Of a stretch of 64,000 bases of DNA, positions 8,016 through 60,259 are shown one piece after another. How positions within the stretch are numbered: the stretch's first letter is position 1; every line of letters starts with the position of its first letter. Position numbers and translations under genes: made by a program. The notes beneath the pieces were generated by a model. The model was not told the origin of the DNA. It saw nothing but the letters and a program-made list of their open reading frames with translations, and did not search any database. The stretch is from Elusimicrobiota bacterium. GTDB lineage: Bacteria; Elusimicrobiota; Elusimicrobia; UBA1565; UBA9628. The stretch is from contig DAIDHI010000080.1 in NCBI GenBank assembly GCA_027452025.1, positions 58 through 64,057 on the forward strand, in the 5' to 3' direction.

Positions 8016-8381
8016 TCAGCCGCGCCGGCGCCGGTGCTGGCGCAAAAGGCAATCGTCGGATACGACGAGGAGGCCCGCTTTGCGGGCGCGCTCTTCGCCG
8101 GCCGGGTGCGTGATCCCGTCTTGCAGCCAAAGCGCCTTCGCCTTGATCTTGATGGCCTCGTCGATCACGGGACCCACGACCTCGGGGTTGCGAAAGACAT
8201 CGACGACGTCGACGGGAAACGGGATCGCCGACAGGCTCGGATAGCACGTCTGCCCCAGCAATTCCTCGTGCCCGGGATTGACGGGAACCACGCGGTAGCC
8301 CCGCTCCTGCAGGTAGGCGGCCACGTAGTGGCCGGGACGGTCGGGCTTGGGCGAGCAGCCCACGACGGCGATGGTCTTCAT
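8016..8381 (-). CDS. CoA-binding domain protein (YccU-like)
   Basis: MKTIAVVGCSPKPDRPGHYVAAYLQERGYRVVPVNP Rossmann-like CoA-binding signature. Start moved to the internal Met. Confidence 0.7.
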   Translation of the reverse strand: MKTIAVVGCSPKPDRPGHYVAAYLQERGYRVVPVNPGHEELLGQTCYPSLSAIPFPVDVVDVFRNPEVVGPVIDEAIKIKAKALWLQDGITHPAGEERARKAGLLVVSDDCLLRQHRRRRG

Positions 8382-8452
8382 CGCCAGAATCCGATCGACG
8401 ACGTCGGCCGGCGCGCCTCCGGGCGTCAACCGGCAGGCGGAGCCGTCGGCCA

Positions 8453-8830
8453 CTAGGCGCGGTACGCTTCGACCTGGACTTCGCCGTCCTCGATCTGGAC
8501 GTGCACGGAGACGACGCGCGAGCAGACCTCGCAATCCTCGTACATCGTCTGCCCGTCGGATTCCGACGTGACATGGACCTCGAAAGTCTCCCCGCAATAG
8601 GGGCACTCGACTTCGGCGTCCTCGTCGATGGCCGGCGTCTCCGGTGCGGCCGTGACCTCGGTCAAAACGGCTTCCAGGACCTTGGCCTGCCGGCTTTCCT
8701 CCCGCTCCTCCGCCGGCTCGGCGGTCCGGGCGGAAGCCGCCTTCCTGCGAACGGCTGGCCTCTTCGCGTGACTCGGCTTGGCTTTCACAAGCAATATATA
8801 CCCCCCACCTTTTTCCCGCGCAAGACCCAA
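8453..8830 (-). CDS. CPXCG-motif cysteine-rich small protein
   Basis: CPYCGETFEVHV...CEVCSRVV zinc-ribbon-like pair. Confidence 0.5.
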   Translation of the reverse strand: MGLAREKGGGYILLVKAKPSHAKRPAVRRKAASARTAEPAEEREESRQAKVLEAVLTEVTAAPETPAIDEDAEVECPYCGETFEVHVTSESDGQTMYEDCEVCSRVVSVHVQIEDGEVQVEAYRA

Positions 8831-8846
8831 AACTCCTGGGACCAGC

Positions 8847-11561
8847 CTATGCGCCTTTGCTCACCTTCTCGAGAGTCAGCCAGCGGTTGGTGCCCGCGAA
8901 CTTTTGGTGCATGCGCGTGCGCGGCTCGCCGTGGGGTGCTCCGAGCTCGGCCACCTGCAAGTCGGCCAGCGCCTCCAGGCCCTTCTTCTTGAACTCGCGC
9001 AGCGAGGCCTCGAGAGCCATGCCCACTGTGCGGAAGGCCAGCAGCGTCGAGAATTGCAGGACGTAGCCGAGACCGCCGAGCTCCTCGTTGGCGATGAGCC
9101 GGCCCTCTTGCTTGGCCTTGCCCCAATGCAGCGAGGGGGAGAGATTGAAGCCCAGCATCTGATCCGGGAAATACTTGTGCACGCCTTGGGCGAAGGCCCT
9201 CGGCCCGTCGATGCCGGTGTCGTTGAACTCGGCCCAAATGACGTCCACGCCCAGAGACGCCGCCTCCAGGGCCCGCGCGATCGCGTGGTCGACGCCCGGC
9301 CCGCGCCCCCCCGGCACGGCGCCGTCCACGGCGTCGGTGCGCGCGATCACGACGAGGTCCGTCTCCGTCGCCTGGGCGGCGGCCTTGACGGCGATGAGCT
9401 TCTCGATCCACTTGTGGGTAGGTACGAGCACCTTGTCTCGCTTGCTGCCGTGATGGGCGATGATGTGGCCGCACGTGCGCTCGGCCGGATCCTGGTCCTC
9501 GAGATGCACGCCGGCGGCGCCCGCGCGGATGAGCTCGCGCGCCAGCGTGAATGTCTGCGTCGGCCCGCCGAAGCCGGCCTCGATGTCGGCGAAGATCGGA
9601 GGCGCGGCCAGGACCTCGCCGTCGCGGTCGTAGAAGTGTCGGTCGCGCGTGCCCTCGATGCCGCGCAGGAGCTCCTGCACCAGCGAGACCATGGAATGTG
9701 AAGGATATATCCCGATGTCTGGATACATGTTGTGGGCGACGGCCAGCTGCCAGCCGCTGGCGTAGATCGCCTCGAAGCCGAGCTCGGTCAGCAGCGACGC
9801 CGTCACGGCGTCGTAGGCCCCCGCCGTGTGGAGGTAGGACTCCGCCGGATCGCTCCGCCGCCGGGCGAAGCGCGCCTTGAGCAGCGCCCTCAGCTTCTGC
9901 GCCGGATGCGTTTTTTCAAGCGGCGCATACATCTTCGCGAACTGCGCCGCGGGATAGGTCCACTTCTTGAAACCTTCGCTGGGAACGGCCGCCGTCTCGC
10001 TGATCATATCTTGGCTCCATTGGCTGGCGCGCTCATAGCGTCGCTCCAGCGCCTCTCTTTGTGCGCGCTCGCCGTTCTGGCGCTGCGCGCGCAGATCCTT
10101 GAAAATCTTCTTCAGCTCCTCGTCGAACCAGCCCGCGACGAGCTCGCGCGTGACGCGCTCTCCCTCCGCGGCCGCGACGGCGTGCCTGATGCGCTGCGCG
10201 ACCATCAGCCGGTAAATCCGGTCCGTCGCCAGATCCTCCATGAAGTTGCCGATGAGGTCGCCGTGCCGGTCGTAGCCTTTGATCATCCGAGCGCCGAGCC
10301 CCGAGAGCACGCCGAATCGATATTCGATCATGGTCCGGATCGCGTCCTTGGTCCCGGCGACGGTGATCGCCCCGATCCCGGTCGGCGCGGGAGTCAGATC
10401 GGGCTTGACCTCGGCGCGCGCGGGAAACGAATGGAGCTGGTTGGGGGCGGGGAATTGGGAAATGGCGGCCTCGTGTTGATCGGGATGCCCGGTCCAAGCC
10501 CCGTCGAAGCCGCAATCCGCTTCATTCTTCTTGTCCGCGGCCAGCCGCTCCATGGCTCGTCCGTTGACCGCGGCATCGCCGCGGTCGGGAAAGAGCGCCG
10601 TCATGCCCCCGATCGCCAGCGCCCCTCGCCGATGGCAGATCTCGACGAGCCGGCGGCGAACATTCTGAAAAAAAGGGATGTCGTGCGGAATCGTGTTACG
10701 GTCCGGCAGGATCCAGCCCGGGTCGGCGAGCTTGAACTCGAGGAGGCTGGCCATATAGTCCCAGCGGCCCAAATTGAGGCCGATCGCGTGTCGGCGAGCC
10801 TCGTAGAGGATCTCCTCGATCTGATAAGCTGCGGGCAGCGACTCGATAAGATACATGATTTTCGTCGTTCCCTCCGGCACGCCGATCGCCGCCTCCATCG
10901 CGGCCAGCGCGTCCGAAAACCACCGCGCCTCGGCGGCCGATTCCACTTTCGGGATGTAGAATCCGAGCTTAGCCTGCAGCCCCGGCGAGTGGACCGCCGC
11001 TTTACGCAGGTCCGCCGTCGGGAAAAAGACCGCGACCATGTCGAAGAGCGAGGCCGACACAATCTCTCCCGGGACGGCTCGCGTTTCGTCGAGATGCAGG
11101 CCGCGGGGGCGGTAATACATAGCCTGAGCGCTCGGCTTGACGCGGGCGGTCTTGCCCGTTTGGGGGTCGGCATAGGCGAGCGTGCCGCGAATGGCCAAGA
11201 CGGTGTTTTCTTGGGCCGTCCGCACGTGCTCCCACTCGGGCGAGATGGAGTCCTCTCCATCCGGCATGCATCCCGGATCGTCGGCGTTGCACATGCCGAC
11301 CAGGATCTTCGCGTTGTCGGCCGGACCGGTGATCTGATTGCGCTGGTCCTTGGCCCAGTCCGGCAGCCGGATCTTCCAGGCCCCGCTCGTCGCCTCCGAT
11401 TCCGGGAGGTAGTCGGGCATCCGTCCTGCGCGCGCGGACGCCAGGGCCGCGCGGCGCTGCTGCAACAGGGCCTGGCGCCTAGGCTCGAAGCGCCTGTGGA
11501 GAGGCAGCAGGAACCCGCGCAAGTCATCCGGAACAATCGCGACGCTTTGTGTCGTTTTCAT
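8847..11561 (-). CDS. bifunctional malate synthase A / isocitrate lyase fusion (MS N-terminal, ICL C-terminal)
   Basis: Residues about 1-540 align with AceB (ITGP, RGLHL, GLNLGRWDY, ETLPA-like LIESLPA). Residues about 590-904 align with AceA (YASGWQLAVA, ADIEAGFGG, GVHLEDQ, TCGH in place of KKCGH, ARTDA). Single uninterrupted 904-codon frame. Confidence 0.85.
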   Translation of the reverse strand: MKTTQSVAIVPDDLRGFLLPLHRRFEPRRQALLQQRRAALASARAGRMPDYLPESEATSGAWKIRLPDWAKDQRNQITGPADNAKILVGMCNADDPGCMPDGEDSISPEWEHVRTAQENTVLAIRGTLAYADPQTGKTARVKPSAQAMYYRPRGLHLDETRAVPGEIVSASLFDMVAVFFPTADLRKAAVHSPGLQAKLGFYIPKVESAAEARWFSDALAAMEAAIGVPEGTTKIMYLIESLPAAYQIEEILYEARRHAIGLNLGRWDYMASLLEFKLADPGWILPDRNTIPHDIPFFQNVRRRLVEICHRRGALAIGGMTALFPDRGDAAVNGRAMERLAADKKNEADCGFDGAWTGHPDQHEAAISQFPAPNQLHSFPARAEVKPDLTPAPTGIGAITVAGTKDAIRTMIEYRFGVLSGLGARMIKGYDRHGDLIGNFMEDLATDRIYRLMVAQRIRHAVAAAEGERVTRELVAGWFDEELKKIFKDLRAQRQNGERAQREALERRYERASQWSQDMISETAAVPSEGFKKWTYPAAQFAKMYAPLEKTHPAQKLRALLKARFARRRSDPAESYLHTAGAYDAVTASLLTELGFEAIYASGWQLAVAHNMYPDIGIYPSHSMVSLVQELLRGIEGTRDRHFYDRDGEVLAAPPIFADIEAGFGGPTQTFTLARELIRAGAAGVHLEDQDPAERTCGHIIAHHGSKRDKVLVPTHKWIEKLIAVKAAAQATETDLVVIARTDAVDGAVPGGRGPGVDHAIARALEAASLGVDVIWAEFNDTGIDGPRAFAQGVHKYFPDQMLGFNLSPSLHWGKAKQEGRLIANEELGGLGYVLQFSTLLAFRTVGMALEASLREFKKKGLEALADLQVAELGAPHGEPRTRMHQKFAGTNRWLTLEKVSKGA

Positions 11562-12518: not shown

Positions 12519-15269
<2,751 letters not shown>

Positions 15270-16738
15270 CCCAGGGGTCCTCCCGGATCTGGGCGTCCCG
15301 CTGCTCGATCTGAGCGTCGAGGCGTTCGCGCTCGTTGGCCGGCAGGAGCTCGTTTTCCTGGCGCCGGCGCGCGGCCCAGCGCCGCCACCGCGCCAAAAAG
15401 TCGTGCACGAGGCGCTGGCGCCAACGCGCGTGGAAGGCGGCCGCGAAGCGCGCCAGCCGCGCGTCCGTGGGCGAGGGCGGAACCTTCGGAGCCATGCCCA
15501 GATCTTGATAAGGCTCGACCAGGTCCGAGGCGAGCAATTCCCGACGGCGCTCGCAGGCCGAGACCAGGCGGCGCAGGGGCGCGTCCAGGATCAAGTCGGG
15601 CTGGACCTGCTCGAGGCGGACGTAGAAGCGGCATTGGCTGGCCTGGGCGTCGCGCTCGTCGTAAAACCGGTCGCCTCCGCCTCCGTCCAGGCGCCGGTCC
15701 AGGTGCTGCAGTTCGTGAAGCAGCACGCCCGCCAACTGCCCTGACGCGTATTCGACCCGGGTGCTGCCGTCGGGATAGCCGTAGCGCACGGGCTCGCCGC
15801 GGCGGCCCGGCAGAAGATGCCGCCGCTCGTCGAGCGGATTGACGGCGGCCAGGGGAACAGGACGGCCTTGAAGCCCGGCCCGAGCCAACTGCTTGGCCAG
15901 AACCTGGGCATTGACGGCCAGGCGCCCCTTGAGCATCGGCGTCTCGACGTAGCCGGGAGTGACGGTGATGATCCAGCCGTCTTGCGGCTGCGCGGGAGAA
16001 ACCGGCACGACGAGCCCGTAAGGCTGGCCGCGCGTGCCGTCCATGACCAAAAAGGTTTGGGTCCTTTTGAGGGCGGCCACCGCGGCCCACGCGTCCTCGG
16101 GGTCGGCCGCCTGGAGGACCAACCTCGCCAGCGAATCGAAGGGCGGGCGCAGTGGGGGCAAGTCGGCCGCGGTGGGGCGTCCGGGATGCGGCTGGCGCCA
16201 GGGCACGACGAACGGCTTGGGAGCTTCGGCCTCCTTGGGCGGGGCGGCTCCGGTGCTGACGGCCACCGCGGGCGTGCTCACGGCCACCGCGGCGGTGCTT
16301 TGGGCGATCTGCGCGGCCGCGGTCGGCGTGCTGACGCGGACCGCCGCAGCCTTCGCTTTGCGCGGCGGGATCTTGACCTTGGGCAGCGGCTGGCCTTGCG
16401 CCTCCCATGCGGTCTCGAGATAGCGCTCGCCCTCGGGCGTCAGGCAGAGCTTCTTGAGGTCCTCGACGGCGACCAGCTTGGCCGCCACCGCGGGGCCGAA
16501 GCGCGTCTGGCACCTCCTCCAAAAGGCCATCTCGGCGGCCTTGCGGATGTTTTCCGGAGCATGGCCGGCCTCGCAGTCCTCGTTCCAGAGCCTCTGGTCG
16601 ACCTGCCAGTCGTCGGCCAGATCCTTGGTGAAGGAAGCCTCGCACTTCTTGACGGCCTGGGTGGCGCAGCCGCTCAAGAGCAGCGCGCCGGCCGCGCAAA
16701 GGCCCAGCGCCCGGACGGCGCTGCGCGCGCCGGCGACC

Positions 16739-18380: not shown

Positions 18381-20517
<2,137 letters not shown>

Positions 20518-20534
<17 letters not shown>

Positions 20535-25436: not shown

Positions 25437-26876
25437 ATGGTCCGCCCCATGAAAGAAGCCTTCACTTTCCACGATGTCCTCCTTGTCCCGAAGCGCTCCT
25501 CGATCCGCTCGCGCCGCGACGTCGACACCTCCGGGCGTTTCTCCAAGAACATCGCCCTGGAATGCCCCATCGTCTCCGCGAACATGGATACGGTCACGGA
25601 GGCGAAGATGGCCATCGCGCTCGCGCAGGCCGGGGGCCTGGGCGTCATCCACCGTTTTCTGACGATCGAGGAGCAGGTGGCCGAGGTGGCCAAGGTCAAG
25701 CGCGCCGAGAACATCGTCATCGAGAAGCCTTACACGGTGGGGCCCGACAACAGCGTGGATTTCGCCAGGCGCCTGATGGCCGAGCAGGAGGTTGGCGGCC
25801 TGCTGGTCGTCGACGCCGGGCAAAAGCTGCTGGGCATCGTCACCTCGCGCGACCTGCAGTTCCAAAAAGACGACACCCTCCCGATCAAGCGCGTAATGTC
25901 CAAGAAGCTCGTCACCGGCAAGGTCGGCCTGGACCTCGAGGAAGCCCAGGATATCCTGCGCGAGCACAAGATCGAGAAGCTTCCTCTCATCGACAAGGAC
26001 GGCAAGCTCGCCGGCCTCATCACCGCCAAGGACATCCGCAAGAAGAAGCACCATCCGCACGCCTCCAAGGACAAGAAGGGGCGGCTGATGGCCGGCGCCG
26101 CGGTGGGGGTCGTCGGGGATTTCATGGAGCGCTCCTCCGCGCTCATCGCGGCCGGCGCCGACGTCCTGGTCGTCGACGTGGCGCACGGCCATGCCGACCA
26201 CGTCATCGACGTCGTCAGGAAGATCAAGCGCAAGTGGCCGGGCGCGGAACTGGTGGCCGGAAACGTGGCGACTTACGAGGGCGCCAAGGACCTGGCCGGC
26301 GCCGGCGCCGACGGCGTCAAGGTAGGCGTCGGGCCGGGCTCGATCTGCAGCACCCGCATCGTCTCCGGCTCGGGGCTGCCGCAGCTCTCCGCCGTCATGG
26401 AGTGCGCCAAGATCACCCGCGAGCGCGGCATCCCGGTCTGCGCCGACGGCGGCATCCGGGACTCCGGAGACATCGCCAAGGCCCTGGCCGCGGGAGCTTC
26501 CTGCGTCATGCTCGGCTCTCTTTTTGCCGGCACCGAGGAAAGCCCGGGCTGGACCGTGGTGCGCGACGGAGCACGCTACAAGGTCTACCGGGGCATGGCC
26601 TCCCTGGGAGCGACGTTGTCGCGCAAGCGCAAGGAGCGCTCCGACGACGAGCTGGATCCCATCGAAGTGGCCGAGGTCGTGCCCGAGGGGGTGGAGTCCA
26701 TGGCGCCCTTCAAGGGTCCGGTGGCCGACGTGCTCTACCAGCTCCAGGGCGGCCTTCGCTCCGGCATGAGCTACTCCGGGGCGCGCACGCTCAAGGAGTT
26801 CTGGGACAACTCGGAGTTCGTCCGGATCACCGCCGCCGCTTGGGCGGAGTCGCGGCCGCATCATCTCGACCGCTGA
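25437..26876 (+). CDS. guaB: IMP dehydrogenase
   Basis: [14 protein letters not shown]-terminus, CBS pair, catalytic loop [11 protein letters not shown]. Confidence 0.9.
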
Positions 26877-28197
26877 AGAGCGGAGAAAGCTCCGGAAACG
26901 CTTCCAGCAGCTGCTCGCCGCGCAAGCGGTCCAGCCTCGCCGTCATCGAGCGCAACGCCTCGAGCTCTCCGCGGCAATCGTCGCGCGAATTCAAAAAGGC
27001 AAGCGCCGACCGAAACGGCGCCGCCGCGGCCTCACCCAAGGGCTCGAGGCGGTCGACGTAGGCCCGGTAAGCATCGATGGCGCGCTCCAGCAGCTCCGGG
27101 CCGAGGACGTGCGCCCGGTAATAGCGCGGCCAGCGCAGGGCTTTGATGCGCATGCCGTCCGCGGCCAGGTAGCCTTTTTCAACCCAGTCGCGGTGAAAAT
27201 TGGGCAGGTGGAGCGCGTTAAAGACGCTCAGCGTCGAGGCCACGGCGAAATCCACCCGGGGGCACTCACGCATGAGGCGCTTGCGGTTGTCCACTATGCC
27301 GTCCCACTTCTGCCCTTTGCGCAGGTACTGCGCCCGCGCGCCCATGGCATCGAGGCTGGCGACAACGCGCACTTCGCGGAACTTCGTCCAATAGCGCAAG
27401 GCGTCCCGGGAGCCCAGGCGCAGCGTGGAAAAGTTGGTCGTGTAGAACAAGGCGACGTCGAAGCGCCTGCGCGACGCCAGGTAGTCGAGGACGTCGTAAT
27501 GCTCGCGGGCCAGAAGAGGCTCTCCCGCGCCGCCGAATTGGATCGTGTGAGCCTCGTCGAGATGCGGCTTGAGGACCTCCAAGAAGCGCGCGCCCCGCGC
27601 CCCGGGCTCGATGAGCCTGGGCCGGGGGACCTTGCCGAGACGCTCGCCCGCCATGGCCGCCAGGTCGGGATACCAGCCCGAGCTGAGCTCGGGGTTGCAG
27701 GTCCGGCAGCTGTAGTTGCAAAGGTTGGAAAAGGTCAGGTGCAGGTAGCGCAGACGGGGATCGCGGAGGCCGCCGTCCTTCCTTGTCTGCGCGACCGCGT
27801 CGAAAAAACCGGAGAACCGGTCGTTGGCCCAATTGCGCATGCTGTACCAGCCGAAGCTCTCATGGGCCTGGCAGCGCTCGCATTGCGCAAGCCTCTTGCC
27901 CGCCAGCATGTCCCGGCGCGCCTTCTTGAGGGTTGGCTGGTTGAGAAAGCCGTCCGCGCGCAGGCCCTCCAAGCGCCCCAGGGACTTGCCTCGCGCGTCC
28001 CAGCGGCAGCACGGCGCCAGCCCCCCGTCGGCGAGGTTGCGCACGGCGAGCCAGGGCAGTATGCAGAAGCCCGGCGCTCGTTTAAGCGCGGCGTCGGGGC
28101 TCAGGCCTTCTTCAGGAGCTTGTTCTTGCAGAGTTGCTCGACCAGTGACCCAATCTCCGCCTCGGCCGCGGCGCCAGACACCTCGAAGAGACCGCAA
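26827..28197 (-). CDS. radical SAM protein with Cys-rich N-terminal domain, no SPASM cysteines
   Basis: CNYSCRTC CX3CX2C motif. N-terminal CILPW...CC...CERC cysteine cluster. N-terminal about 97 nt overlap the upstream PqqD gene in another frame. Confidence 0.7.
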   Translation of the reverse strand: MRSLRGVWRRGRGGDWVTGRATLQEQAPEEGLSPDAALKRAPGFCILPWLAVRNLADGGLAPCCRWDARGKSLGRLEGLRADGFLNQPTLKKARRDMLAGKRLAQCERCQAHESFGWYSMRNWANDRFSGFFDAVAQTRKDGGLRDPRLRYLHLTFSNLCNYSCRTCNPELSSGWYPDLAAMAGERLGKVPRPRLIEPGARGARFLEVLKPHLDEAHTIQFGGAGEPLLAREHYDVLDYLASRRRFDVALFYTTNFSTLRLGSRDALRYWTKFREVRVVASLDAMGARAQYLRKGQKWDGIVDNRKRLMRECPRVDFAVASTLSVFNALHLPNFHRDWVEKGYLAADGMRIKALRWPRYYRAHVLGPELLERAIDAYRAYVDRLEPLGEAAAAPFRSALAFLNSRDDCRGELEALRSMTARLDRLRGEQLLEAFPELSPLFSGRDDAAATPPKRRR

Positions 28198-28373
28198 AGC
28201 TCGTCGCGAGCCTCGGCCAGCGACAGGCCGCGGGTGAGGGAGTCCCAGATGGCCGCGCCCGTCTCATTGAGCGAGAAATAAGCGCTCGTGTCGGTGTCGA
28301 GGATCACCGTCTCTTTATCGACCTTCCTGAAGGCCACGTTATCAGGAATCTGGAACTTGTCGTTGAGCGTCAT
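28101..28373 (-). CDS. PqqD-family peptide chaperone (RiPP recognition element)
   Basis: 90 aa. VDKETVILDTDTSAYFSLNETGAAIWDSL...LVEQLCKNKLL matches the PqqD/RRE fold pattern. Confidence 0.75.
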   Translation of the reverse strand: MTLNDKFQIPDNVAFRKVDKETVILDTDTSAYFSLNETGAAIWDSLTRGLSLAEARDELCGLFEVSGAAAEAEIGSLVEQLCKNKLLKKA

Positions 28374-28385
28374 GTCGACCGGAGT

Positions 28386-29513
28386 CTACCTAAATATGGA
28401 TAACCGCAGGTAGGCCAGCGCGGCCGCCTCCCAGCGATAACGCGGCGAGCGCGCCAAGGCCGCCGCCCCGAGCCGCCGGCGCAAAGGGGCGTCTCGAAGC
28501 AGGCGCTCCAGCCCGGCGGCGAGCGCCGCCGGGTCCTTGGGCGCGACGAGCAGGCCCGTGCGCCCGTCCTGGACTACGTGGGCCAGCCCGCCGACGCGCG
28601 TCGCCAGGACGGGCTTCGCGCAGGCCATGGCTTCGACGGCGGCCATGCCGAATATCTCGAAGCGAGACGGCAGGACGAGGAAAAGGCACCGGCGCATCAA
28701 GGCGCGCAAGGCGGGGCGCTCGACGAGGCCTAAAAACCGCACGCGCCGGCCAAGGCCCAGCTTGGCGGCCAGCGACTGGAAATAGCCGTCGAAATGATCC
28801 GGGCCGCAGAGCACGAGCGTAACCCCGGGGAATCGCGCGCACACATCGCGCCAGGCGAGCAGCAGCAGGTCGATGCCTTTGTAGTAGTGAAGCCGCGCCG
28901 CGCAAAGGATGAAGCGCGAGCCCGCAGGCAGCGGAAGCGGCGCCGGGCGGCCCCGAAACTCGCCGGGGTCGAAGCCCGACGGCACGACGGCGACGCGGCG
29001 CGAGGCTCCGTCCGTGCGGCGGATGTCCTCGGCCACCGAGGGCGAGATCACGGTGACCCAGGCCGCGCGCCGAAACGCTTCGTCGAGAAGCCGCCAGCGC
29101 CGGCCGCGCTGAGGACGCTCGCCGGTGACCCGGTCCCAGGAATGAAAGGTCAGGCCTACGGGCACGCGGCGCGCCGAGCAGGCCCGCCAAAGCGCCGTGA
29201 GCTGGTTGTCTCGGAAGCAGCGCATGACGTGAAGATGGATCATGTCGGGCCGGAAGTCCGCGAGGGCCGAGGACAGCTGCGCGAAGATGCGCCGGCCGCG
29301 CCGGCGACGCTGCGAGCCGTTGCCCCCGAGGCGCCAGAAGCGGCCCCAGGGCCTGTCCTCGAAAAACGGCAGCCGCGCGCCGGGCGCCAACTGCGCCGCG
29401 GCGGCGACCGGGCAGCCGAGCTTGGCATAACCCGCGGCGAGGCCTGCGATGGTGGACTCGGCCGTCGGATCGCCGGCGAGGAACTCGGCGCAGATGAAAA
29501 CGCGGGGCCGGGC
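28386..29513 (-). CDS. glycosyltransferase family 1 (start codon unresolved)
   Basis: C-terminal GT1 (GT-B) signature ILCAARLHYYKGIDLLL...EIFGMAAVEAMACAKPVLATRVGG. Frame is open far upstream with no canonical start near the domain N-terminus. Confidence 0.55.
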   Translation of the reverse strand, partial: ARPRVFICAEFLAGDPTAESTIAGLAAGYAKLGCPVAAAAQLAPGARLPFFEDRPWGRFWRLGGNGSQRRRRGRRIFAQLSSALADFRPDMIHLHVMRCFRDNQLTALWRACSARRVPVGLTFHSWDRVTGERPQRGRRWRLLDEAFRRAAWVTVISPSVAEDIRRTDGASRRVAVVPSGFDPGEFRGRPAPLPLPAGSRFILCAARLHYYKGIDLLLLAWRDVCARFPGVTLVLCGPDHFDGYFQSLAAKLGLGRRVRFLGLVERPALRALMRRCLFLVLPSRFEIFGMAAVEAMACAKPVLATRVGGLAHVVQDGRTGLLVAPKDPAALAAGLERLLRDAPLRRRLGAAALARSPRYRWEAAALAYLRLSIFR

Positions 29514-29635
29514 TAGGGGAGGACGGCCAGGGCGATGCCGGCCTGCGTGGCCAAATAGGTCAACGCGCCGTGGACCACCAGCACCGGCTTGAGCCAAGGG
29601 CGCCTCTTGCGCTTCTTGTCCTTTCCCTTGGCCAT
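29513..29635 (-). CDS. small ORF (40 aa) with Lys-rich N-terminus and one hydrophobic segment, not in ORF track
   Basis: MAKGKDKKRKRRPWLKPVLVVHGALTYLATQAGIALAVLP. Lies between GT2 stop and GT1 domain. Confidence 0.3.
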   Translation of the reverse strand: MAKGKDKKRKRRPWLKPVLVVHGALTYLATQAGIALAVLP

Positions 29636-29653
29636 CCTCGGAATTAAAGCAGG

Positions 29654-30622
29654 TCACGGGGCCCCTGTCAACGCCAGGACGCCTCGCAGAGCGGGAGAGG
29701 CGAAATAAGGGTGCGCCGCGGCGCGCGAAAGCCACTCGCGCGCCCGCGGCCCGTCGCCGCTTTTGAGGCAGAGACCGGCCATCGCCGCGTAGAACTGCGC
29801 CGGCGCGGGATGTCCCTTGACGGCCTCGGCGTAGCGCCTGATGGCCAGGTCGAAGCGTCCGGCGGCGGCGTGCCGGGCCGCCAGCCACTCCGCGCGGTCC
29901 CAAGGGTGGCTGTCGGGCAGCGGAAAGCGCGCGAGACGAGAGCCCCATTTCTCGAAGAACTTCAAGCGCGCCGCCCCGGAGTCCGGATTGCGCCGCAGAT
30001 GGTCGTGGATCACGGCGCTGCCGCCGTGATAGAGGACGGCGAGCCCCTTCAAGCGAGCCCTCAGGCAATAGTCGAGGTCCTCGAACTGGCAAGGGAAGAA
30101 CCTCTCGTCGAACGGACCGACGCGCGAAAACAGCGAGCGGCGCATGAGCCAGCAGGCGCCGATCACGCTTTCGCAGCGGCGGGTGTAGTCGCGCTGGCCC
30201 AGGTCGCGCTCTTCCTCCCCGGCGTTGCGGCTCCACGGAGAGCCCATCTCCGCGGCGTTGATCGTGCCGTCCGGCCGCGCCACCTTGCAGCCGACGATGA
30301 CGGCCTTACGGTCGCCCTCGGCGGCCCGGAGCATCCCTTCCAGCCAGCCAGCCGTGGCGCGGGCATCGTCATCGAGCAGGACCACCCAATCAGAGCGGAG
30401 TCGCCCGCGGACGGCGTTGACGGCGCCGGAAAATCCCAGGTTGCGGCGGTGGCGAACCGCCTCGACGTCGGCGCCTCGCAGCCACGACGCCGTTCCGTCG
30501 CGGGAGGCGTTGTCGACGATGATCAGCCGGTGCGGGACGGCCCGCGTGTGGCGTCGGACCGATTGCACGCACGACGCCAGAGCCCGTCTGGCGTCGTGCG
30601 TGACCACGACGATGTCGATCAT
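29654..30622 (-). CDS. glycosyltransferase family 2
   Basis: IDIVVVTHDA...LIIVDNASRDGT GT-A N-terminus. DxD region. Confidence 0.8.
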   Translation of the reverse strand: MIDIVVVTHDARRALASCVQSVRRHTRAVPHRLIIVDNASRDGTASWLRGADVEAVRHRRNLGFSGAVNAVRGRLRSDWVVLLDDDARATAGWLEGMLRAAEGDRKAVIVGCKVARPDGTINAAEMGSPWSRNAGEEERDLGQRDYTRRCESVIGACWLMRRSLFSRVGPFDERFFPCQFEDLDYCLRARLKGLAVLYHGGSAVIHDHLRRNPDSGAARLKFFEKWGSRLARFPLPDSHPWDRAEWLAARHAAAGRFDLAIRRYAEAVKGHPAPAQFYAAMAGLCLKSGDGPRAREWLSRAAAHPYFASPALRGVLALTGAP

Positions 30623-30629
30623 CGGCTCC

Positions 30630-32612
30630 TCAGCTGGCCGCGGCGGAAAACGCGGCGAAATCGCTCATGCGAGGCATCTTGCGCACATAGGCGACGGCCT
30701 GCATCCGGTCGAGCGCGAGGCGCTGGGCGACCGGCAGGCTCGACATGGGCATGGCCAGGAAAAGGAAAGAGTCGTCCTCTTCGAAGACCCAGCGCCGCTT
30801 GACGAGGTCTGCGAGCGCCCGGCGCACGCGCTTGGCCGAGCAGCGGGGAAACTTTTCTTGGCAGGCCCGCAGGACGCCGGGGAAGGGACGGATCTCGTCG
30901 CAGGCTTCCAGGATCGCGGCCTCAAGGCCCGTGACCAGGCGCTGCCGGTGCTCGATGCGCCGGGAAAGCCCGAGCGGACGCGAGTCGTAGACCTCCATGA
31001 AGCCGAGGCCCTTGCGATAGGCGAAATAGTTCTTCTGGTAGATCCGCTGCCAATGGTCGAATATCGGGCGTATCACGGGCTCGGCGTAGTCAGCCGGATC
31101 CGGCTGCCCTTCGACGCTCGGCGCCTCGAAGAAGTAGGCGATCTCGCCGCGCTTGAAGCGCGGCTCTGGGTAGAGGAAACGGTATTCCTCCATAGGCACG
31201 GGCTCCCGCAGCCCGAAGCGCCGCCAGTCGAAGTAGTAGGGGCTGAAGCGGTCGACCCGGATGACGTGGGCGTAAAACGGCGGCTGCAGGTGCGTCGCCG
31301 CCGCCATCGTATCGGCGATCCTGCGGTACTCGTCGGGCGACTCGCCGGGAAAGCCCCACAGCATCCCCCACGTCAGCTGAATGCGGCCCGCGCAGGCCTT
31401 GAGCGCCTGGAGGTTTTGGATGGTCTTGACGCCCTTGCGCATCAGCTTGAGGACGGGCGTGCTGAAGCTCTCGATGCCCGCTTGGATCGCCAGGATTCCG
31501 GCCTCGTGAAGAGTCTCGATCTGGGCCGCCGTCAAGTTCGCCTTGGTCTCGAAAAAAACGTGCCACTCGAGCTTGTGCTTCTTGCGAAACTCCGCCAGGA
31601 CGGCGGTGAGGCTGGTGAGGTGCTCCACGCTCAGGATGTTGTCGCAGGCATGCAGCCGGTAGGTCTTGTATCTCTCGAAGAGGAAGGCGATCTCGGCGGC
31701 GACGGCCTGCGCCGGCTTGGCGCGGAACGTCATGCCGTCGCGGTTGAGCCCGCAGAACGTGCAGTGCTGCTTCTGCCCCCACCAGCATCCGCGGGAGGCC
31801 TCGAAAGTCACCTGCGGCGAGACCCACGATGCCATGCCCGAGGCCTCAAGCTCACGGAAATAGTCGTCGTGGTCGGGAACTGGCACGCGGCGCATGTCGG
31901 CCAGGCGCGTCTCAGCGGGGTTTCGGGAGACGACGCCCTCGCCTGTCCGCGCCGAGACATGCGGCATCCCCTTCGGGAGCCGGCCGGAGCGGATGTGCCG
32001 CAGCAGCGCCGGAAACGCCTCCTCGGCCTCGCCTTCGACGACGTAGTCGACCCACTCGCAGCCCTTGAGCGTCGCCACCCCCATCTCGCCGTCGCAATTG
32101 GCTCCGCCGAGGACGATCGTCGTTTTCGGATGCTTGCGCTTGATGAGGCGGGCCAGCGCCAGAGAGGCGATGTGATTGTGGAACATGCTGCTGAAGCCGA
32201 CGACGTCGTAGCGCCCCCAGGGGACGTCGGCCAGGCAATGCTCGAGGAAAGCCGGCACGTCGTCGCGCACGAGCCTGCGCAGGCGCTCGCGCGGAAATTT
32301 TCCAAGGTTCTTGGCGAACACGGGCTCGGCGAGGACGTCCTCGAGCTCGTCAGGCAGCTCCTTGAGGCCGCCCGGGCCGAAAAGATGATAGGCGAAGGCC
32401 CACTGCGCGAAATGCCCGTAGGGAGCGAGCGCGAAGGCGTCGAGAAGGTCGTCGGCCCACCGGCCGAAGCGCAAGTTGAGGTAGTGGACGTCGCAAGGCA
32501 TCCCTTCACGCGCGAGGACGCTTTTGAGCACGCCGACTCCGAGCGGAGGCCGGTCGGGCGCGGCCCAAGGCATGACGACCAAGGCGACGCGGAGGCTGCG
32601 CGGTTTGGACAT
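30630..32612 (-). CDS. B12-binding domain radical SAM protein
   Basis: N-terminal B12-binding-like domain (LRVALVVMPWAAPDRPPLGVGVL). Radical SAM core with CWWGQKQHCTFC. Start moved to MSKPRSL because the upstream part of the long ORF would overlap the divergent oxygenase gene. Confidence 0.8.
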   Translation of the reverse strand: MSKPRSLRVALVVMPWAAPDRPPLGVGVLKSVLAREGMPCDVHYLNLRFGRWADDLLDAFALAPYGHFAQWAFAYHLFGPGGLKELPDELEDVLAEPVFAKNLGKFPRERLRRLVRDDVPAFLEHCLADVPWGRYDVVGFSSMFHNHIASLALARLIKRKHPKTTIVLGGANCDGEMGVATLKGCEWVDYVVEGEAEEAFPALLRHIRSGRLPKGMPHVSARTGEGVVSRNPAETRLADMRRVPVPDHDDYFRELEASGMASWVSPQVTFEASRGCWWGQKQHCTFCGLNRDGMTFRAKPAQAVAAEIAFLFERYKTYRLHACDNILSVEHLTSLTAVLAEFRKKHKLEWHVFFETKANLTAAQIETLHEAGILAIQAGIESFSTPVLKLMRKGVKTIQNLQALKACAGRIQLTWGMLWGFPGESPDEYRRIADTMAAATHLQPPFYAHVIRVDRFSPYYFDWRRFGLREPVPMEEYRFLYPEPRFKRGEIAYFFEAPSVEGQPDPADYAEPVIRPIFDHWQRIYQKNYFAYRKGLGFMEVYDSRPLGLSRRIEHRQRLVTGLEAAILEACDEIRPFPGVLRACQEKFPRCSAKRVRRALADLVKRRWVFEEDDSFLFLAMPMSSLPVAQRLALDRMQAVAYVRKMPRMSDFAAFSAAAS

Positions 32613-32657
32613 TTTGTTGCAAGGGGACGTCGCTGAAGTATTATAGTATATCGCCCT

Positions 32658-33209
32658 ATGGAGATCGTCGAGGAAGCCAGCGATATTTTCAGCTTTCAGC
32701 TCCTCTCGCCGAGCTATTGCCAAAAACTCGTCCGGTGGGCTTCGCGGGACCTCCGGTGGAATCGCGGGCGCGTGTACGCCGGTCCGCGGCGCCTGCAGGA
32801 CGCCGCCTCCCGCCGCTGCCTGGAGCGCACGGTCGCCGGCCTGCCCCCTCCCTGGAACGAGCTGGCGCAGGCTTGCCGCGAAAAGGCGCTTTCCGCGGCG
32901 CGGCTGTGCTGGCGCGAGCGCTTCAGGCGGCTGACCGGAGCGCGTCTGGTGCGCTACGACCCCGGCGGCTATTTCAAGATGCATTGCGACTTCCTCCCCA
33001 GCCTGCGGGTCAAGCCGCGCTTCCTGAGCCTGGTCTGCTATCTCAACGAAGACTTCTCGGGCGGGCGCACGGCCTTCCCGCGGCAAGCCCACGACATCGT
33101 CCCAAAGACCGGGAAAGCCGTCCTCTTCCCGTCCTCGATCACGCACCCTCACGAAGCCCAGGCCGTCCGAGAGGGGACCCGCTACGTGATCGTGGCCTGG
33201 GTCGAATGA
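32658..33209 (+). CDS. 2OG-Fe(II) oxygenase (prolyl-4-hydroxylase-like)
   Basis: YFKMHCDF ... ITHPHEA His-x-Asp...His facial triad spacing. RYVIVAWV. Confidence 0.75.
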   Translation: MEIVEEASDIFSFQLLSPSYCQKLVRWASRDLRWNRGRVYAGPRRLQDAASRRCLERTVAGLPPPWNELAQACREKALSAARLCWRERFRRLTGARLVRYDPGGYFKMHCDFLPSLRVKPRFLSLVCYLNEDFSGGRTAFPRQAHDIVPKTGKAVLFPSSITHPHEAQAVREGTRYVIVAWVE

Positions 33210-37565: not shown

Positions 37566-38084
37566 ATGGCGGCCTCAAAAGTCGTTTTGCTCGTCGGCCA
37601 CGGGGGAATCCCCAAGGATTGCCCGCCGCAGCTCGTCTCCGAGTTCAAGCGCGAGGAGGCCCGGGCGGCCGGAAAGCCCTCCGCGCGCCTCCTCGAGCTC
37701 GACGCCCGCCTGCGCCAATGGCCCCGGACGCCGGAAAACGACCCCTATAAGCCCGGCTTGGAGGCCGTGGCGGCCTCCCTCGCCGCGGCCCTGCCGGAGC
37801 ACGACGTCGTCACCGCCTACAACGAATTCTGCGCGCCAAGCCTCGAGCAGGCCTTCGACGAGGCCGTGGCGGGCGGCGCCCGCCAGATCATTGTGATCAC
37901 CACCATGTACACGCGCGGGGGCATCCACAGCGAAAAGGAAATCCCAGCGATCCTGGAGGGCCTGCGCCGGCGCCATCCGGGAGTCGAGGCCCGCTACGTC
38001 TGGCCCTTCGATGCCGCGGCGATCGGGGAGTTCCTGGCCCGGGAAGTGCGCCGTACCGAGACGGACGCGCCGGCCCCGGCATGA
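37566..38084 (+). CDS. sirohydrochlorin chelatase CbiX-like
   Basis: VVLLVGHGGIPKD and second-half His region typical of small CbiX/SirB chelatases. Only the last 173 codons of the long track ORF are used. Confidence 0.65.
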   Translation: MAASKVVLLVGHGGIPKDCPPQLVSEFKREEARAAGKPSARLLELDARLRQWPRTPENDPYKPGLEAVAASLAAALPEHDVVTAYNEFCAPSLEQAFDEAVAGGARQIIVITTMYTRGGIHSEKEIPAILEGLRRRHPGVEARYVWPFDAAAIGEFLAREVRRTETDAPAPA

Positions 38085-44710: not shown

Positions 44711-45655
44711 CTAGACCGACGGGACTGGGCGAGCTTGCAACTGTTTTGTGGCGGGAATGAGACGCTGGATCGCCTCCGCCATCCCCCTCGCGGCGGCTTC
44801 CTCGCCCGCGGCGTTGGGCCACGGCAGGCCCGGACGCAGCCGATAGCGCTTGAGCGGCGGCCTCAGGTCGCCGACCCCGTCATGAAAGGGAAGGCCGCAG
44901 GCGGCCGCGTACGTCCGGTAGGCCTGACGGACGGGCTCGGCGTCTCGAAGCGACCGCAAGGCGGGATCGGGGAACAGGACGACGACCCCCGGAACGCGGG
45001 CGCGGCGCAGGATCCTCGCGACGAGCGCCAAGTTGTCCCGGATCGACTTCGGATGAAACGGGATCGCGGGCCTGGGCCGCGACCAATAGGAGCGTTCCAT
45101 GTACCAGCGCAGCAAGACGCTGTGCGTCCTGAGGAAGTTCTTGAGGCGGGGAAAAGGATACCGCGCCTTGGCCAGAGGAGGCCCTTGGTCCAAGGCGGCT
45201 TCGAAGACCACGAGATCGGGGTGCCATTGCAGCGCCCGCGCCTTGAGGAACTCCCGCTCCTGGCCGAACTGGTAATGGTACATCGAAGCGTTGATCACAA
45301 CCAGCCGCATGCCCCGCGGCGGCCGGAGCAGGCCTTCCAGGCGGCGGACGAAGCCGGCCGCCTCCGGCAGCCCCAAAGCGAACGCCGGCTCGTCTCCGAC
45401 GACGACGACCCGGTATTCGCCGGCGGGCTTGGCCTTCGGGATGTCGCGCTCGCGCAGGCCGTCGGCGTTGATGCGGGTAAACGCCCCTTCCTTCATGCCG
45501 GCGGCCCCAGGACGCAGCTCGAAGCCGAGGCCGGGATCGAGGCTGTCCTCGTAGACGAGCGCGTCCTCGTGAATCACGGCCCTGGCGACGGCCTCCGCGC
45601 AGGCGGCCGCGGCGACAAGCGCGCAGGCGGCCGCGGCTATGGTCCTCGGCAACAT
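44711..45655 (-). CDS. SGNH/GDSL-like hydrolase family protein
   Basis: Signal peptide. RVVVVGDEPAF GDS-like block. C-terminal DxxH-like region. Moderate. Confidence 0.55.
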   Translation of the reverse strand: MLPRTIAAAACALVAAAACAEAVARAVIHEDALVYEDSLDPGLGFELRPGAAGMKEGAFTRINADGLRERDIPKAKPAGEYRVVVVGDEPAFALGLPEAAGFVRRLEGLLRPPRGMRLVVINASMYHYQFGQEREFLKARALQWHPDLVVFEAALDQGPPLAKARYPFPRLKNFLRTHSVLLRWYMERSYWSRPRPAIPFHPKSIRDNLALVARILRRARVPGVVVLFPDPALRSLRDAEPVRQAYRTYAAACGLPFHDGVGDLRPPLKRYRLRPGLPWPNAAGEEAAARGMAEAIQRLIPATKQLQARPVPSV

Positions 45656-60241: not shown

Positions 60242-60259
60242 ATCGCCTGTCGCCGTCTC

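What the first reader, a model, noticed from the sequence alone, without database searches (positions are those of the whole stretch)
8847..11561. Glyoxylate-shunt enzymes fused in one 904-aa protein, malate synthase first and isocitrate lyase second
One uninterrupted frame contains a full malate synthase A domain (GLNLGRWDY etc.), a short Arg/Glu-rich linker (about 540-590), and an isocitrate lyase domain (YASGWQLAVA, ADIEAGFGG, VHLEDQ, TCGH, ARTDA). The only fused form I recall, from nematodes, is ICL-MS. The order MS-ICL and a bacterial context are unusual. The ICL active-site KKCGH is TCGH here. Aconitase is encoded 1 kb away.
Basis: partly seen in the sequence, partly recalled or inferred. 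Interest (0 to 1): 0.65.

Follow-up and report, generated by a model that had tools for sequence, protein, structure and literature searches.

The report
Fused malate synthase–isocitrate lyase gene
An Elusimicrobia bacterium encodes both glyoxylate-shunt enzymes as one conserved 904-residue protein; the fusion is real, but similar bacterial fusions are already common and documented, so it is a modest find and not a surprising one.

Summary
Window 8847-11561 (-) is one 904-aa ORF with a complete malate synthase A-like half (res 1-524), a short flexible linker (~525-537) and an isocitrate lyase-like half (538-904). It is not an assembly artefact. The same fusion is intact in 47 protein clusters (70-78% identity) and in at least 20 species-level Elusimicrobia genomes. 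It forms one clade, and both halves are under purifying selection (dN/dS 0.17 and 0.15). Catalytic and ligand-binding residues of both enzymes are conserved. RTCGH plus a 7-residue loop insertion is the signature of a whole "short ICL" clade, not a defect of this protein. Stand-alone relatives occur as MS->ICL operons 22-35 bp apart, the likely ancestral state.

The claim of rarity does not hold. MS->ICL order is known from Euglena. Bacterial fusions were noted in 2006 and 2016 (Anaeromyxobacter). More than 110 clusters of canonical bacterial MS->ICL fusions exist, including cultured Bdellovibrio bacteriovorus.

This is most likely a bifunctional glyoxylate-shunt enzyme that arose independently from divergent MS and ICL subfamilies. 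Both halves score below NCBI's equivalog cut-offs, and no member has been characterised. Interest is low to moderate.

The parts
8847..11561 (-). Complete fusion gene (904 codons plus stop at 8847-8849)
   Evidence: ORF list. Identical protein P0001 is in NCBI. GC3 is 0.80-0.91 throughout.
9990..11561 (-). Malate synthase A-like half, residues 1-524 (MS_N 9-55, TIM barrel 148-376, MS_C 399-491, long C-terminal helix 499-524)
   Evidence: Pfam. TIGR01344 343 bits, below the 594.5 cut-off. Aligns to 3CUX/3CUZ over residues 10-498, E about 1e-75. Foldseek TM 0.85-0.87 to MSA. AF2 secondary structure.
11091..11111 (-). MS motif RPRGLHL (151-157) containing the conserved active-site Arg
   Evidence: Identical column in the E. 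coli and B. anthracis MSA alignment. The role of the residue is from my knowledge of the MSA/MSG structure literature.
10755..10850 (-). MS Mg-ligand motifs LIESLP (238-243, Glu) and GRWDY (265-269, Asp)
   Evidence: Conserved in the alignment to 3CUZ/3CUX. Coordinates.
10224..10280 (-). MS clade-specific 10-residue insertion KGYDRHGDLIGN (428-439), followed by MEDLAT (441-446) with the catalytic-base Asp443
   Evidence: Gap in both PDB alignments. GYD..LIGNFMEDLATD is conserved in 47 of 48 fusions. A 17-residue versus 7-residue loop class separates the stand-alone MS relatives.
9951..10007 (-). Fusion junction and linker (residues about 519-537: MISE-TAAVPSEGFKKWTYP)
   Evidence: Least conserved, length-variable segment, 4-22 residues in relatives. 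dN/dS 0.34 against 0.15-0.17 in the halves. AF2 pLDDT is below 50 at 529-537. Stand-alone MS ends and stand-alone ICL begins here.
8850..9950 (-). Short isocitrate lyase-like half, residues 538-904
   Evidence: Pfam ICL. NF011645 203 bits and TIGR01346 188 bits, both below cut-off. Aligns to solved ICLs 6LRP/7CMX, E about 1e-50, over the whole core. Foldseek finds ICLs.
9420..9482 (-). ICL catalytic loop: E-R-T-C697-G-H (694-699) plus the clade-specific insertion IIAHHGSKRD before KVLVP
   Evidence: Alignment gap against canonical KKCGH-MGG-KVL. Invariant RTCGH and a 10-residue loop in 48 fused and 104 stand-alone proteins. pLDDT dips at 701-703.
9033..9764 (-). ICL substrate and Mg-binding motifs: YASGW (600-604), YPD (613-615), DIEAGFGG (659-666), HLEDQ (686-690), ARTDA (740-744), NLSPSLHW (806-813), QFSTL (836-840)
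   Evidence: All are aligned to identical or conservative residues in 6LRP, 7CMX and 3E5B. F/T in QFxT is the ICL-type state of the ICL/MICL selectivity positions (PMC11982470).
11562..11637 (-). 76-nt upstream spacer between the MBL-fold gene and the fusion start; no convincing promoter
   Evidence: Sequence. No sigma-70-like site on this strand, and one weak terminator-like hairpin at 11601-11583. No sigma-54 consensus anywhere in the window.
12519..15269 (+). Aconitase A (916 aa), divergently oriented; supplies isocitrate in the same pathway; linkage conserved only in close relatives
   Evidence: Pfam Aconitase E 1e-167. Synteny in L007, L020 and L024 only.

Best explanation
The gene encodes a bifunctional glyoxylate-shunt enzyme. 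The C-terminal short ICL cleaves isocitrate to succinate and glyoxylate, with Cys697 of RTCGH as general acid/base and Mg2+ held by the D/E cluster. The N-terminal malate synthase A-like domain condenses that glyoxylate with acetyl-CoA to malate, using Asp443 as base, Arg153 (of RPRGLHL), and Glu240 and Asp268 as Mg ligands. The net reaction is isocitrate + acetyl-CoA -> succinate + malate + CoA. The fusion arose once in one Elusimicrobia lineage, by joining an adjacent MS->short-ICL operon end to end, and has been kept by selection. What is shown: the fusion is real, has a single origin, is under constraint on both halves, and keeps the catalytic residues and folds of both enzymes. What is inferred: both activities, a 1:1 stoichiometry, and the benefit, which is probably co-expression and local capture of reactive glyoxylate around an ICL-type oligomeric core.
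For: The ORF is intact here, in 47 full-length clusters of 875-922 aa at 70-78% identity from four source collections, and in at least 20 GTDB species genomes. The fusions are monophyletic in both the MS and the ICL NJ trees. 390 of 904 positions are invariant. The junction is the only poorly conserved, length-variable part. Median dN/dS is 0.17 (MS), 0.15 (ICL) and 0.34 (junction). MS half: all three Pfam MS domains; the Arg, Glu, Asp and Asp active-site columns are identical to E. coli and B. anthracis MSA; Foldseek TM 0.85-0.87. ICL half: SGW, YPD, D-EAGFGG, EDQ, CGH, ARTDA, N-SPS--W and QF-T are conserved against three solved ICLs; the ICL-type W and F/T selectivity residues are present; ICL models outscore PrpB by about 2-fold. 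Unfused relatives form MS->short-ICL operons with 22-35 bp gaps in Elusimicrobiota and Acidobacteriota (L002, L003, L090, L021, L030). The wider MS clade sits in operons with canonical KKCGH ICLs. AF2 gives two confident domains joined by a disordered 529-537 segment. Precedent: the Euglena MS-ICL fusion, named in the cited title as a bifunctional glyoxylate cycle enzyme, and bacterial fusions with glyoxylate as the reactive shared intermediate. Groundwater Elusimicrobia are predicted to have a TCA cycle, respiration, acetate use and beta-oxidation, and aconitase is adjacent here.
Against: No member of this fusion family, of the short RTCGH ICL clade, or of this MS subclade has been assayed. 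Both halves fall below NCBIfam equivalog cut-offs (343 vs 594.5; 203 vs 562; 188 vs 276). The canonical KKCGH signature is not met: the two lysines are R and T. The catalytic loop carries a 7-residue insertion, and the roughly 25-35-residue C-terminal tail of canonical ICL is missing, so kinetics or specificity could differ. Genomes carrying the fusion often hold a second, stand-alone short ICL not linked to MS, and in Gemmatimonadota the short ICL is solitary. The lyase therefore does not always work with an adjacent MS. Channelling is pure inference: pTM 0.62 gives no fixed domain interface. The rest of the pathway (citrate synthase, acetyl-CoA synthetase, SDH) could not be checked because only this window is available.
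Confidence: 0.75

Rival explanations
1. The architecture is as described, but the lyase half (and perhaps the synthase half) has a shifted substrate. It could be, for example, a methylisocitrate or other 2-hydroxy-acid lyase whose 2-oxo-acid product is condensed with an acyl-CoA by the MS-like half. The protein would then not be a classical glyoxylate shunt.
For: Both halves are below equivalog cut-offs. The motif is RTCGH and not KKCGH, with an extended catalytic loop and no C-terminal tail. Canonical ICLs already show secondary methylisocitrate lyase activity, and specificity determinants are incompletely understood (PMC11982470). Extra stand-alone paralogues in the same genomes suggest functional diversification.
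Against: The residues that distinguish ICL from MICL are in the ICL state (W602 of SGW, and F837/T839 of QFST). The succinate-binding N-SPS--W motif is conserved. PrpB models score only 75-90 bits. The MS active-site columns are identical to MSA.
Confidence: 0.13
2. One half is a non-catalytic (regulatory or scaffolding) domain. For example, the MS-like half could act only as an acetyl-CoA sensor that activates the ICL half, by analogy with acetyl-CoA activation of M. tuberculosis ICL2.
For: Mtb ICL2 is activated by acetyl-CoA binding to an appended domain (PMC6788997). The MS half is divergent and has a clade-specific insertion right before the catalytic Asp.
Against: All four MS catalytic or Mg-ligand columns are conserved, and dN/dS is 0.17. 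Stand-alone members of the same MS clade exist as separate genes in operons with ICL, where they can only be useful as enzymes.
Confidence: 0.06
3. The fusion is an assembly, frameshift or gene-calling artefact that joins two adjacent genes.
For: Two relatives show split genes: CP096137.1 (L001/L026) and JAHFCE010000003.1 (L023). Unfused operons with tiny gaps exist.
Against: The same uninterrupted frame recurs in 47 clusters and at least 20 species genomes from unrelated studies and assemblers. The GC3 frame signal is continuous. The CP096137.1 breaks are two 1-nt deletions next to C-runs in a locus with the same flanking genes as intact fusions, i.e. sequencing error or a recent pseudogene.
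Confidence: 0.01

Closest known systems
Canonical bacterial MS->ICL fusions (e.g. Bdellovibrio bacteriovorus P0465, 969 aa; Anaeromyxobacteraceae P0419; Planctomycetota P0412; more than 110 clusters)
   Same: Same domain order (MS N-terminal, ICL C-terminal), bacterial, single ORF, short linker. Glyoxylate as the shared reactive intermediate was already proposed as the rationale for the Anaeromyxobacter sp. Fw109-5 fusion (PMC4921024).
   Different: Only about 31% identical to the window protein. Both halves of P0465 pass the equivalog cut-offs (695 and 713 bits), the motif is KKCGH, and the ICL is full-length at about 430 aa. The Elusimicrobia fusion groups with unfused relatives at 61-79% identity, so it is an independent fusion event. 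Some canonical fusions carry a third, hemerythrin domain.
[quoted passage not shown] 2005, cited in PMC1630690)
   Same: MS-then-ICL order in one polypeptide. The cited title describes it as a molecularly characterised bifunctional glyoxylate cycle enzyme.
   Different: It is eukaryotic. No sequence comparison was made here. I did not read the primary paper, which is not in the library.
Nematode ICL-MS bifunctional protein (C. elegans ICL-1; Strongyloides P0243, 967 aa)
   Same: The same two enzymes in one chain.
   Different: Opposite order (ICL 18-249, MS 598-962), canonical KKCGH, about 34% identity.
Unfused MS->short-ICL operons of Elusimicrobiota and Acidobacteriota (L002/L003: P0068+P0187; L090; L021; L030)
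   Same: Same MS subclade (61-68% identity, same 10-residue insertion) and same short ICL clade (70-79% identity, RTCGH plus loop insertion). Same gene order, with gaps of 22-35 bp or an overlap.
   Different: Two polypeptides. In L002 and L090 the operon follows a GAF-sigma54 activator gene, which is absent from the window.
Solved canonical enzymes: E. coli / B. anthracis malate synthase A (3CUZ, 3CUX) and ICLs of Chloroflexus aurantiacus (6LRP), Bacillus cereus (7CMX/7CMY) and M. tuberculosis ICL1 (1F61/1F8I)
   Same: Folds and active-site motifs.
   Different: About 27-33% identity in the structural alignments. The MS half has a 10-residue insertion before the catalytic Asp. The ICL half has R-T in place of K-K, a 7-residue loop insertion, about 20 fewer residues after ARTDA, and no C-terminal tail.

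Membership tests
Malate synthase A (PF01274 / TIGR01344) | Three-part architecture: MS_N, TIM barrel, MS_C | tested here: met
   PF20656 9-55, PF01274 148-376 (187 bits), PF20659 399-491
Malate synthase A (PF01274 / TIGR01344) | Score above the NCBIfam equivalog cut-off | tested here: not met
   343.3 bits against a cut-off of 594.5. The stand-alone relative P0068 is also below it, at 308 bits.
Malate synthase A (PF01274 / TIGR01344) | Catalytic Arg, two Mg-ligand acids (Glu, Asp) and the catalytic-base Asp | tested here: met
   RPRGLHL, LIESLP, GRWDY and MEDLAT are aligned to identical residues in 3CUZ/3CUX and conserved in the family. The residue roles come from prior knowledge of MSA/MSG structures.
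Malate synthase A (PF01274 / TIGR01344) | MSA fold | tested here: met
   Foldseek E 3e-36, target TM 0.85-0.87 to 3CV2/3CUZ/3CUX; pLDDT mostly above 90
Malate synthase A (PF01274 / TIGR01344) | Glyoxylate + acetyl-CoA -> malate activity | not testable with these tools
   Indirect support only: operon or fusion linkage to ICL genes
Isocitrate lyase (PF00463 / TIGR01346 / NF011645) | Pfam ICL family match over the catalytic core | tested here: met
   PF00463 144 bits in two stretches. Full-core alignment to 7CMX residues 58-398.
Isocitrate lyase (PF00463 / TIGR01346 / NF011645) | Score above the NCBIfam equivalog cut-offs | tested here: not met
   203 against 562 (NF011645) and 188.5 against 275.9 (TIGR01346). 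The same holds for the stand-alone P0187.
Isocitrate lyase (PF00463 / TIGR01346 / NF011645) | Signature catalytic motif K-K-C-G-H | tested here: not met
   The motif is R-T-C-G-H. Cys, Gly and His are retained, the first Lys is conservatively Arg, and the second Lys is Thr. This is invariant in 48 fused and 104 stand-alone clade members. Canonical motif per PMC11982470 and PMC6788997.
Isocitrate lyase (PF00463 / TIGR01346 / NF011645) | Mg2+, glyoxylate and succinate binding residues (SGW, YPD, D-E of DxEAGFGG, EDQ, R of ARTDA, N-S-S of NCSPSFNW, T of QFxT) | tested here: met
   All are conserved in alignments to 6LRP, 7CMX and 3E5B. Residue roles come from prior knowledge of Mtb ICL1 structures.
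Isocitrate lyase (PF00463 / TIGR01346 / NF011645) | ICL-type (not MICL-type) selectivity residues: Trp in SGW, Phe/Thr in QF-T | tested here: met
   W602, F837 and T839 are present. F/T against L/S as selectivity positions per PMC11982470.
Isocitrate lyase (PF00463 / TIGR01346 / NF011645) | Canonical length, with the C-terminal tail that follows the HQREVG motif | tested here: not met
   The protein ends 10 residues after the position aligned to residue ~398-410 of the 433-436-residue chains. The whole clade is 375-400 aa.
2-Methylisocitrate lyase PrpB (TIGR02317) | Equivalog score, KRCGH motif, about 295 aa, MICL-type selectivity residues | tested here: not met
   90 bits against 354. The motif is RTCGH. 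ICL-type W/F/T residues and an ICL-specific N-SPS--W segment are present.
Bifunctional MS-ICL glyoxylate-cycle proteins | Both complete domains in one reading frame, reproducibly | tested here: met
Bifunctional MS-ICL glyoxylate-cycle proteins | Common descent with the known bacterial (Bdellovibrio / Anaeromyxobacter-type) fusions | tested here: not met
   About 31% identity to those fusions, against 61-79% to unfused relatives. The clade signatures (RTCGH loop, MS insertion) are shared with unfused relatives only. This points to an independent fusion.
Bifunctional MS-ICL glyoxylate-cycle proteins | Both activities demonstrated in one polypeptide | not testable with these tools
   Needs an enzyme assay

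The most novel reading that the evidence does not exclude
The short RTCGH ICL clade and its partner MS subclade may be a mechanistically distinct, uncharacterised version of the glyoxylate shunt. The extended catalytic loop (I-[IV]-AHHG-KR-K) would replace the missing C-terminal lid of canonical ICL. In the fused form, the acetyl-CoA-binding MS domain would gate or activate the lyase, or obligatorily channel glyoxylate. The fusion would then be a regulated two-step machine and not two enzymes that happen to be tethered.
Probability: 0.12. Interest if true: 0.55.

Novelty: new member of a known kind. Interest (0 to 1): 0.27.

Why it matters
If both halves are active, this is one more independent case of evolution fusing the two glyoxylate-shunt enzymes. 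That strengthens the argument that tethering ICL to MS is selectively useful, for stoichiometry and for containing reactive glyoxylate. It also assigns acetate or fatty-acid assimilation capacity to a group of uncultured, free-living Elusimicrobia whose main genomic survey does not mention the shunt.

There is a practical point too. NCBI names these proteins only "isocitrate lyase/phosphoenolpyruvate mutase family protein" or "aldolase/citrate lyase family protein", because both halves miss the equivalog thresholds. Pathway reconstructions based on those models will therefore score the shunt as absent in these lineages. The short RTCGH ICL clade, with more than 150 clusters across Elusimicrobiota, Acidobacteriota and Gemmatimonadota, is an uncharacterised minimal ICL that would be worth one biochemical study.

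Tried and rejected
1. I looked up the window protein's own contig for precomputed gene calls. It is not on record, so I annotated neighbours by Pfam instead.
2. At first I read L001 (CP096137.1) as an ancestral two-gene MS/ICL locus. I rejected this: it has the same flanking genes as intact fusions (L085-L087), and its breaks are two 1-nt deletions next to C-runs.
3. I considered aconitase linkage as functional evidence. It is only weak, because the linkage is conserved in L007, L020 and L024 but not in the other sublineage, where the fusion is a solitary gene among unrelated neighbours.
4. I searched the window for a sigma-54 promoter, because unfused operons follow a GAF-sigma54 activator. 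There was no TGGCAC-N5-TTGC match, and no convincing sigma-70 site on the gene's strand.
5. I searched the window for a second MS or ICL copy and found none.
6. A literature search for 'RTCGH' gave no relevant paper. The Elusimicrobia + glyoxylate search gave nothing describing this fusion.
7. I at first took the roughly 45 Acidobacteriota/Syntrophobacterales loci matching residues 10-903 for further fusions. They are two genes separated by a stop codon and a short spacer.
8. Methylisocitrate lyase, PEP mutase, oxaloacetate hydrolase and malyl-CoA lyase/CitE identities were considered and rejected on score and on diagnostic residues.
9. The metagenome and viral collection scans were not used, because the genome collection and protein searches already answered the distribution question.
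Full report
**Observation.** Pfam finds the three malate synthase domains: MS_N 9-55, TIM barrel 148-376 (E 4e-55) and MS_C 399-491. The isocitrate lyase family follows from residue 552 (E 6e-42). All quoted motifs are present. GC3 is 0.80-0.91 in this frame along the whole gene, including the junction. The long ORFs on the opposite strand are the usual shadows of a 67% GC genome. Aconitase A lies at 12519-15269 (+), 958 nt away, with an MBL-fold gene in between. There is one correction. The junction is at residues about 519-537 (nt 9951-10007), not 540-590. The Arg/Glu-rich stretch at about 490-524 is the natural C-terminal helix of this MS clade, and residues 538-575 are the natural N-terminus of the stand-alone lyase.

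**Artefact test.** The identical protein is in NCBI (P0001). Another 46 full-length clusters (875-922 aa, 70-78% identity) come from NCBI, ENA, JGI and Logan assemblies, and those with names are Elusimicrobia MAGs. A scan of one genome per GTDB species found the two halves in one open frame in at least 20 Elusimicrobia species genomes (L005-L020, L022, L024, L025, L027). Two relatives have split copies. In CP096137.1 the locus has the same flanking genes as intact fusions (L085-L087), and the breaks are two single-base deletions next to C-runs. That looks like long-read error or a recent pseudogene, not a natural two-gene state. The artefact explanation is effectively excluded.

**The two halves.**
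- The N-terminal half aligns over residues 10-498 with E. coli and B. anthracis malate synthase A (E about 1e-75).
- The active-site Arg (RPRGLHL), the two Mg-ligand acids (LIESLP, GRWDY) and the catalytic-base Asp (MEDLAT) align with identical residues. A 10-residue insertion precedes the Asp. The roles of these residues come from my knowledge of the MSA/MSG structural literature.
- The C-terminal half aligns over the whole catalytic core of solved ICLs (6LRP Chloroflexus, 7CMX B. cereus, 3E5B Brucella; E 1e-45 to 1e-52).
- It conserves SGW, YPD, D-EAGFGG, EDQ, CGH, ARTDA, N-SPS--W and QF-T.
- The Trp and the Phe/Thr positions are in the ICL state, not the methylisocitrate-lyase state (PMC11982470). 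PrpB and PEP-mutase-type models score far lower than ICL models.
- An AF2 model built on a 104-sequence alignment is confident (mean pLDDT 88.8). Its low-confidence segments are 529-537 (the linker) and 701-703 (the loop insertion). pTM is 0.62, which fits two rigid domains without a fixed interface.
- Foldseek recovers MSA (target TM 0.85-0.87) and ICLs. No solved chain holds both domains.

**Divergence from the canonical enzymes.**
- Both halves fall below the NCBIfam equivalog cut-offs: 343 against 594.5 for MSA, and 203 against 562 and 188.5 against 275.9 for ICL. This explains the generic NCBI names.
- The ICL signature KKCGH reads RTCGH. The catalytic loop is 7 residues longer, about 20 residues are missing after ARTDA, and the C-terminal tail of canonical ICL is absent.
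- None of this is private to this protein. RTCGH with the 10-residue loop is found in all 48 fusions and in 104 of 105 stand-alone short lyases of this clade (375-435 aa, 62-79% identical; the remaining one has RACGH) from Elusimicrobiota, Acidobacteriota (Polarisedimenticolia) and Gemmatimonadota.
- The MS insertion is likewise shared with the stand-alone MS relatives at 61-68% identity.
- I found no paper on this motif or clade.

**Origin.**
- Stand-alone relatives form MS->short-ICL operons. In L002/L003 the gap is 22 bp and in L090 it is 35 bp, and both follow a GAF-sigma54 activator gene. L021 and L030 are similar.
- The stand-alone MS ends, and the stand-alone lyase begins, exactly where the fusion's variable segment lies.
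- In NJ trees of each half the 47 fusions form one clade. The only other members are the frameshifted CP096137.1 copy and two lyase-only entries, P0122 and P0124; P0124 comes from a 1.6-kb contig and is probably a fragment of a fusion, while P0122 (423 aa) was not examined.
- 390 of 904 positions are invariant. The linker varies from about 4 to 22 residues.
- Median dN/dS is 0.17 (MS), 0.15 (ICL) and 0.34 (tail plus junction).
- The fusion therefore arose once, by end-to-end joining of an operon, and both halves have stayed under selection.

**Context.** In the closest relatives (L007, L020, L024) the order aconitase - MBL - fusion - CPXCG protein - CoA-binding protein - FKBP - deaminase is conserved. 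In the other sublineage the fusion is a solitary gene among unrelated, divergently oriented neighbours. The window has no sigma-54 consensus and no second MS or ICL copy. Other genes in the window are housekeeping or unrelated. Free-living Elusimicrobia lineages are predicted to have a TCA cycle, respiration, acetate use and beta-oxidation. The survey paper never mentions glyoxylate.

**Comparison with what is known.**
- Kondrashov et al. 2006 state that Euglena has the MS-ICL order and nematodes the ICL-MS order, and they count a third fusion in Anaeromyxobacter dehalogenans (PMC1630690).
- Henry et al. 2016 list an ICL/MS fusion of Anaeromyxobacter sp. Fw109-5 among fusions that handle a reactive intermediate, glyoxylate (PMC4921024).
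- An exhaustive representative search found further fusion clusters (P0240, P0250, P0263, P0324 and others) and the nematode form (P0243).
- A search with P0240 returned more than 110 clusters of MS->ICL fusions of 950-1150 aa. The named ones come from Deltaproteobacteria, Planctomycetota, Anaeromyxobacteraceae, Thermoleophilia and cultured Bdellovibrio bacteriovorus.
- In Bdellovibrio P0465 the MS domain (11-512) precedes the ICL domain (526-948), and both pass the equivalog cut-offs.
- These fusions are only about 31% identical to the window protein and carry KKCGH. The Elusimicrobia fusion is therefore an independent, convergent event built from divergent subfamilies.

**Verdict.** The gene is real, conserved, and most likely encodes a bifunctional glyoxylate-shunt enzyme (confidence 0.75).
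- The main rival is a shifted substrate specificity of the divergent lyase or synthase pair (0.13).
- A regulatory pseudo-enzyme role for one half (0.06) and an artefact (0.01) are unlikely.
- Novelty: a new, independently evolved member of a known kind.
- Interest is low to moderate (0.27). The fusion itself would not surprise a specialist. The uncharacterised short RTCGH ICL clade, and the fact that current equivalog models miss both halves, are the useful by-products.

Noticed in passing
L028, L031-L072, L077, L081 (Acidobacteriota / Syntrophobacterales loci); also L021: In about 42 of about 46 loci the canonical MS and KKCGH-ICL genes are in the same reading frame. They are usually separated by one stop codon (TAA 15, TAG 12, TGA 5) plus a stop-free spacer of 11-21 codons with an SD-like CAGGAG before the ICL ATG. 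This could mean fission of an old fusion, an easy route to fusion by stop-codon loss, or low-level readthrough. The tblastn-based ranking of loci may favour in-frame pairs, so selection bias is not excluded.
   Followed up: partly
Proteins P0408, P0410, P0411, P0414 and others; P0408 residues 990-1102: Many canonical bacterial MS->ICL fusions of about 1100 aa carry a third, C-terminal hemerythrin domain (PF01814). This suggests O2, iron or redox sensing coupled to the glyoxylate shunt.
   Followed up: partly
L004 (CP096137.1 1004883-1022049), L060 with L016 (MAG Co_metawrap_2019), L051 + L062 (MAG GFS_2774), L088/L089 (Gemmatimonadota): Genomes carrying the fusion often also encode a stand-alone short RTCGH ICL paralogue that is not next to any MS gene. 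In Gemmatimonadota the short ICL is a solitary gene. The role of these extra copies is unexplained.
   Followed up: partly
L002 6096-7640 and L090 2446-3975: Unfused MS->short-ICL operons in two lineages are immediately preceded by a GAF-sigma54-activator-HTH_8 gene, suggesting ligand-controlled sigma-54 regulation. No such gene or sigma-54 promoter consensus is present near the fusion in the window.
   Followed up: partly
L001/L026 (CP096137.1, 'complete genome') and L023 (JAHFCE010000003.1): The fusion gene is split in these assemblies. In CP096137.1 the cause is two 1-nt deletions next to C-runs, typical of long-read homopolymer error, so other genes of that 'complete' MAG may be similarly affected.
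   Followed up: yes
window 8016-8830 (-): Directly downstream of the fusion are a CPXCG cysteine-rich protein (8453-8830) and a CoA-binding-domain protein (PF13380; the ORF listed as 8016-8606 overlaps the former, so its true start is probably further in). This trio is conserved in L007, L009, L020 and L024. A CoA-binding protein next to an acetyl-CoA-using enzyme may or may not be meaningful.
   Followed up: partly
window 28001-30000 and 60001-62000: There are AT-skew spikes (0.20 and 0.16) against a background near 0-0.05.
   Followed up: no
window 15217-16677 (-), 26827-28197 (-), 34006-35943 (+), 44711-45655 (-): Four ORFs of 314-645 aa have strong coding-type GC3 (0.82-0.88) but no Pfam family at E <= 1e-5.
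   Followed up: no
window 38081-39865 (+), 60294-61502 (-), 30630-33152 (-), 18381-20534 (+): The window also encodes a copper amine oxidase, a caspase-domain (Peptidase_C14) protein, an 840-aa B12-binding radical SAM protein and a TPR-Ser/Thr kinase. This gene content fits a free-living, metabolically versatile Elusimicrobia lineage.
   Followed up: no
L014 (CALRXP010000125.1): A MAG labelled 'Candidatus Endomicrobium trichonymphae' carries the fusion at 72% identity. That is surprising for a reduced termite-gut endosymbiont, and the taxonomic label of this MAG is probably wrong.
   Followed up: no
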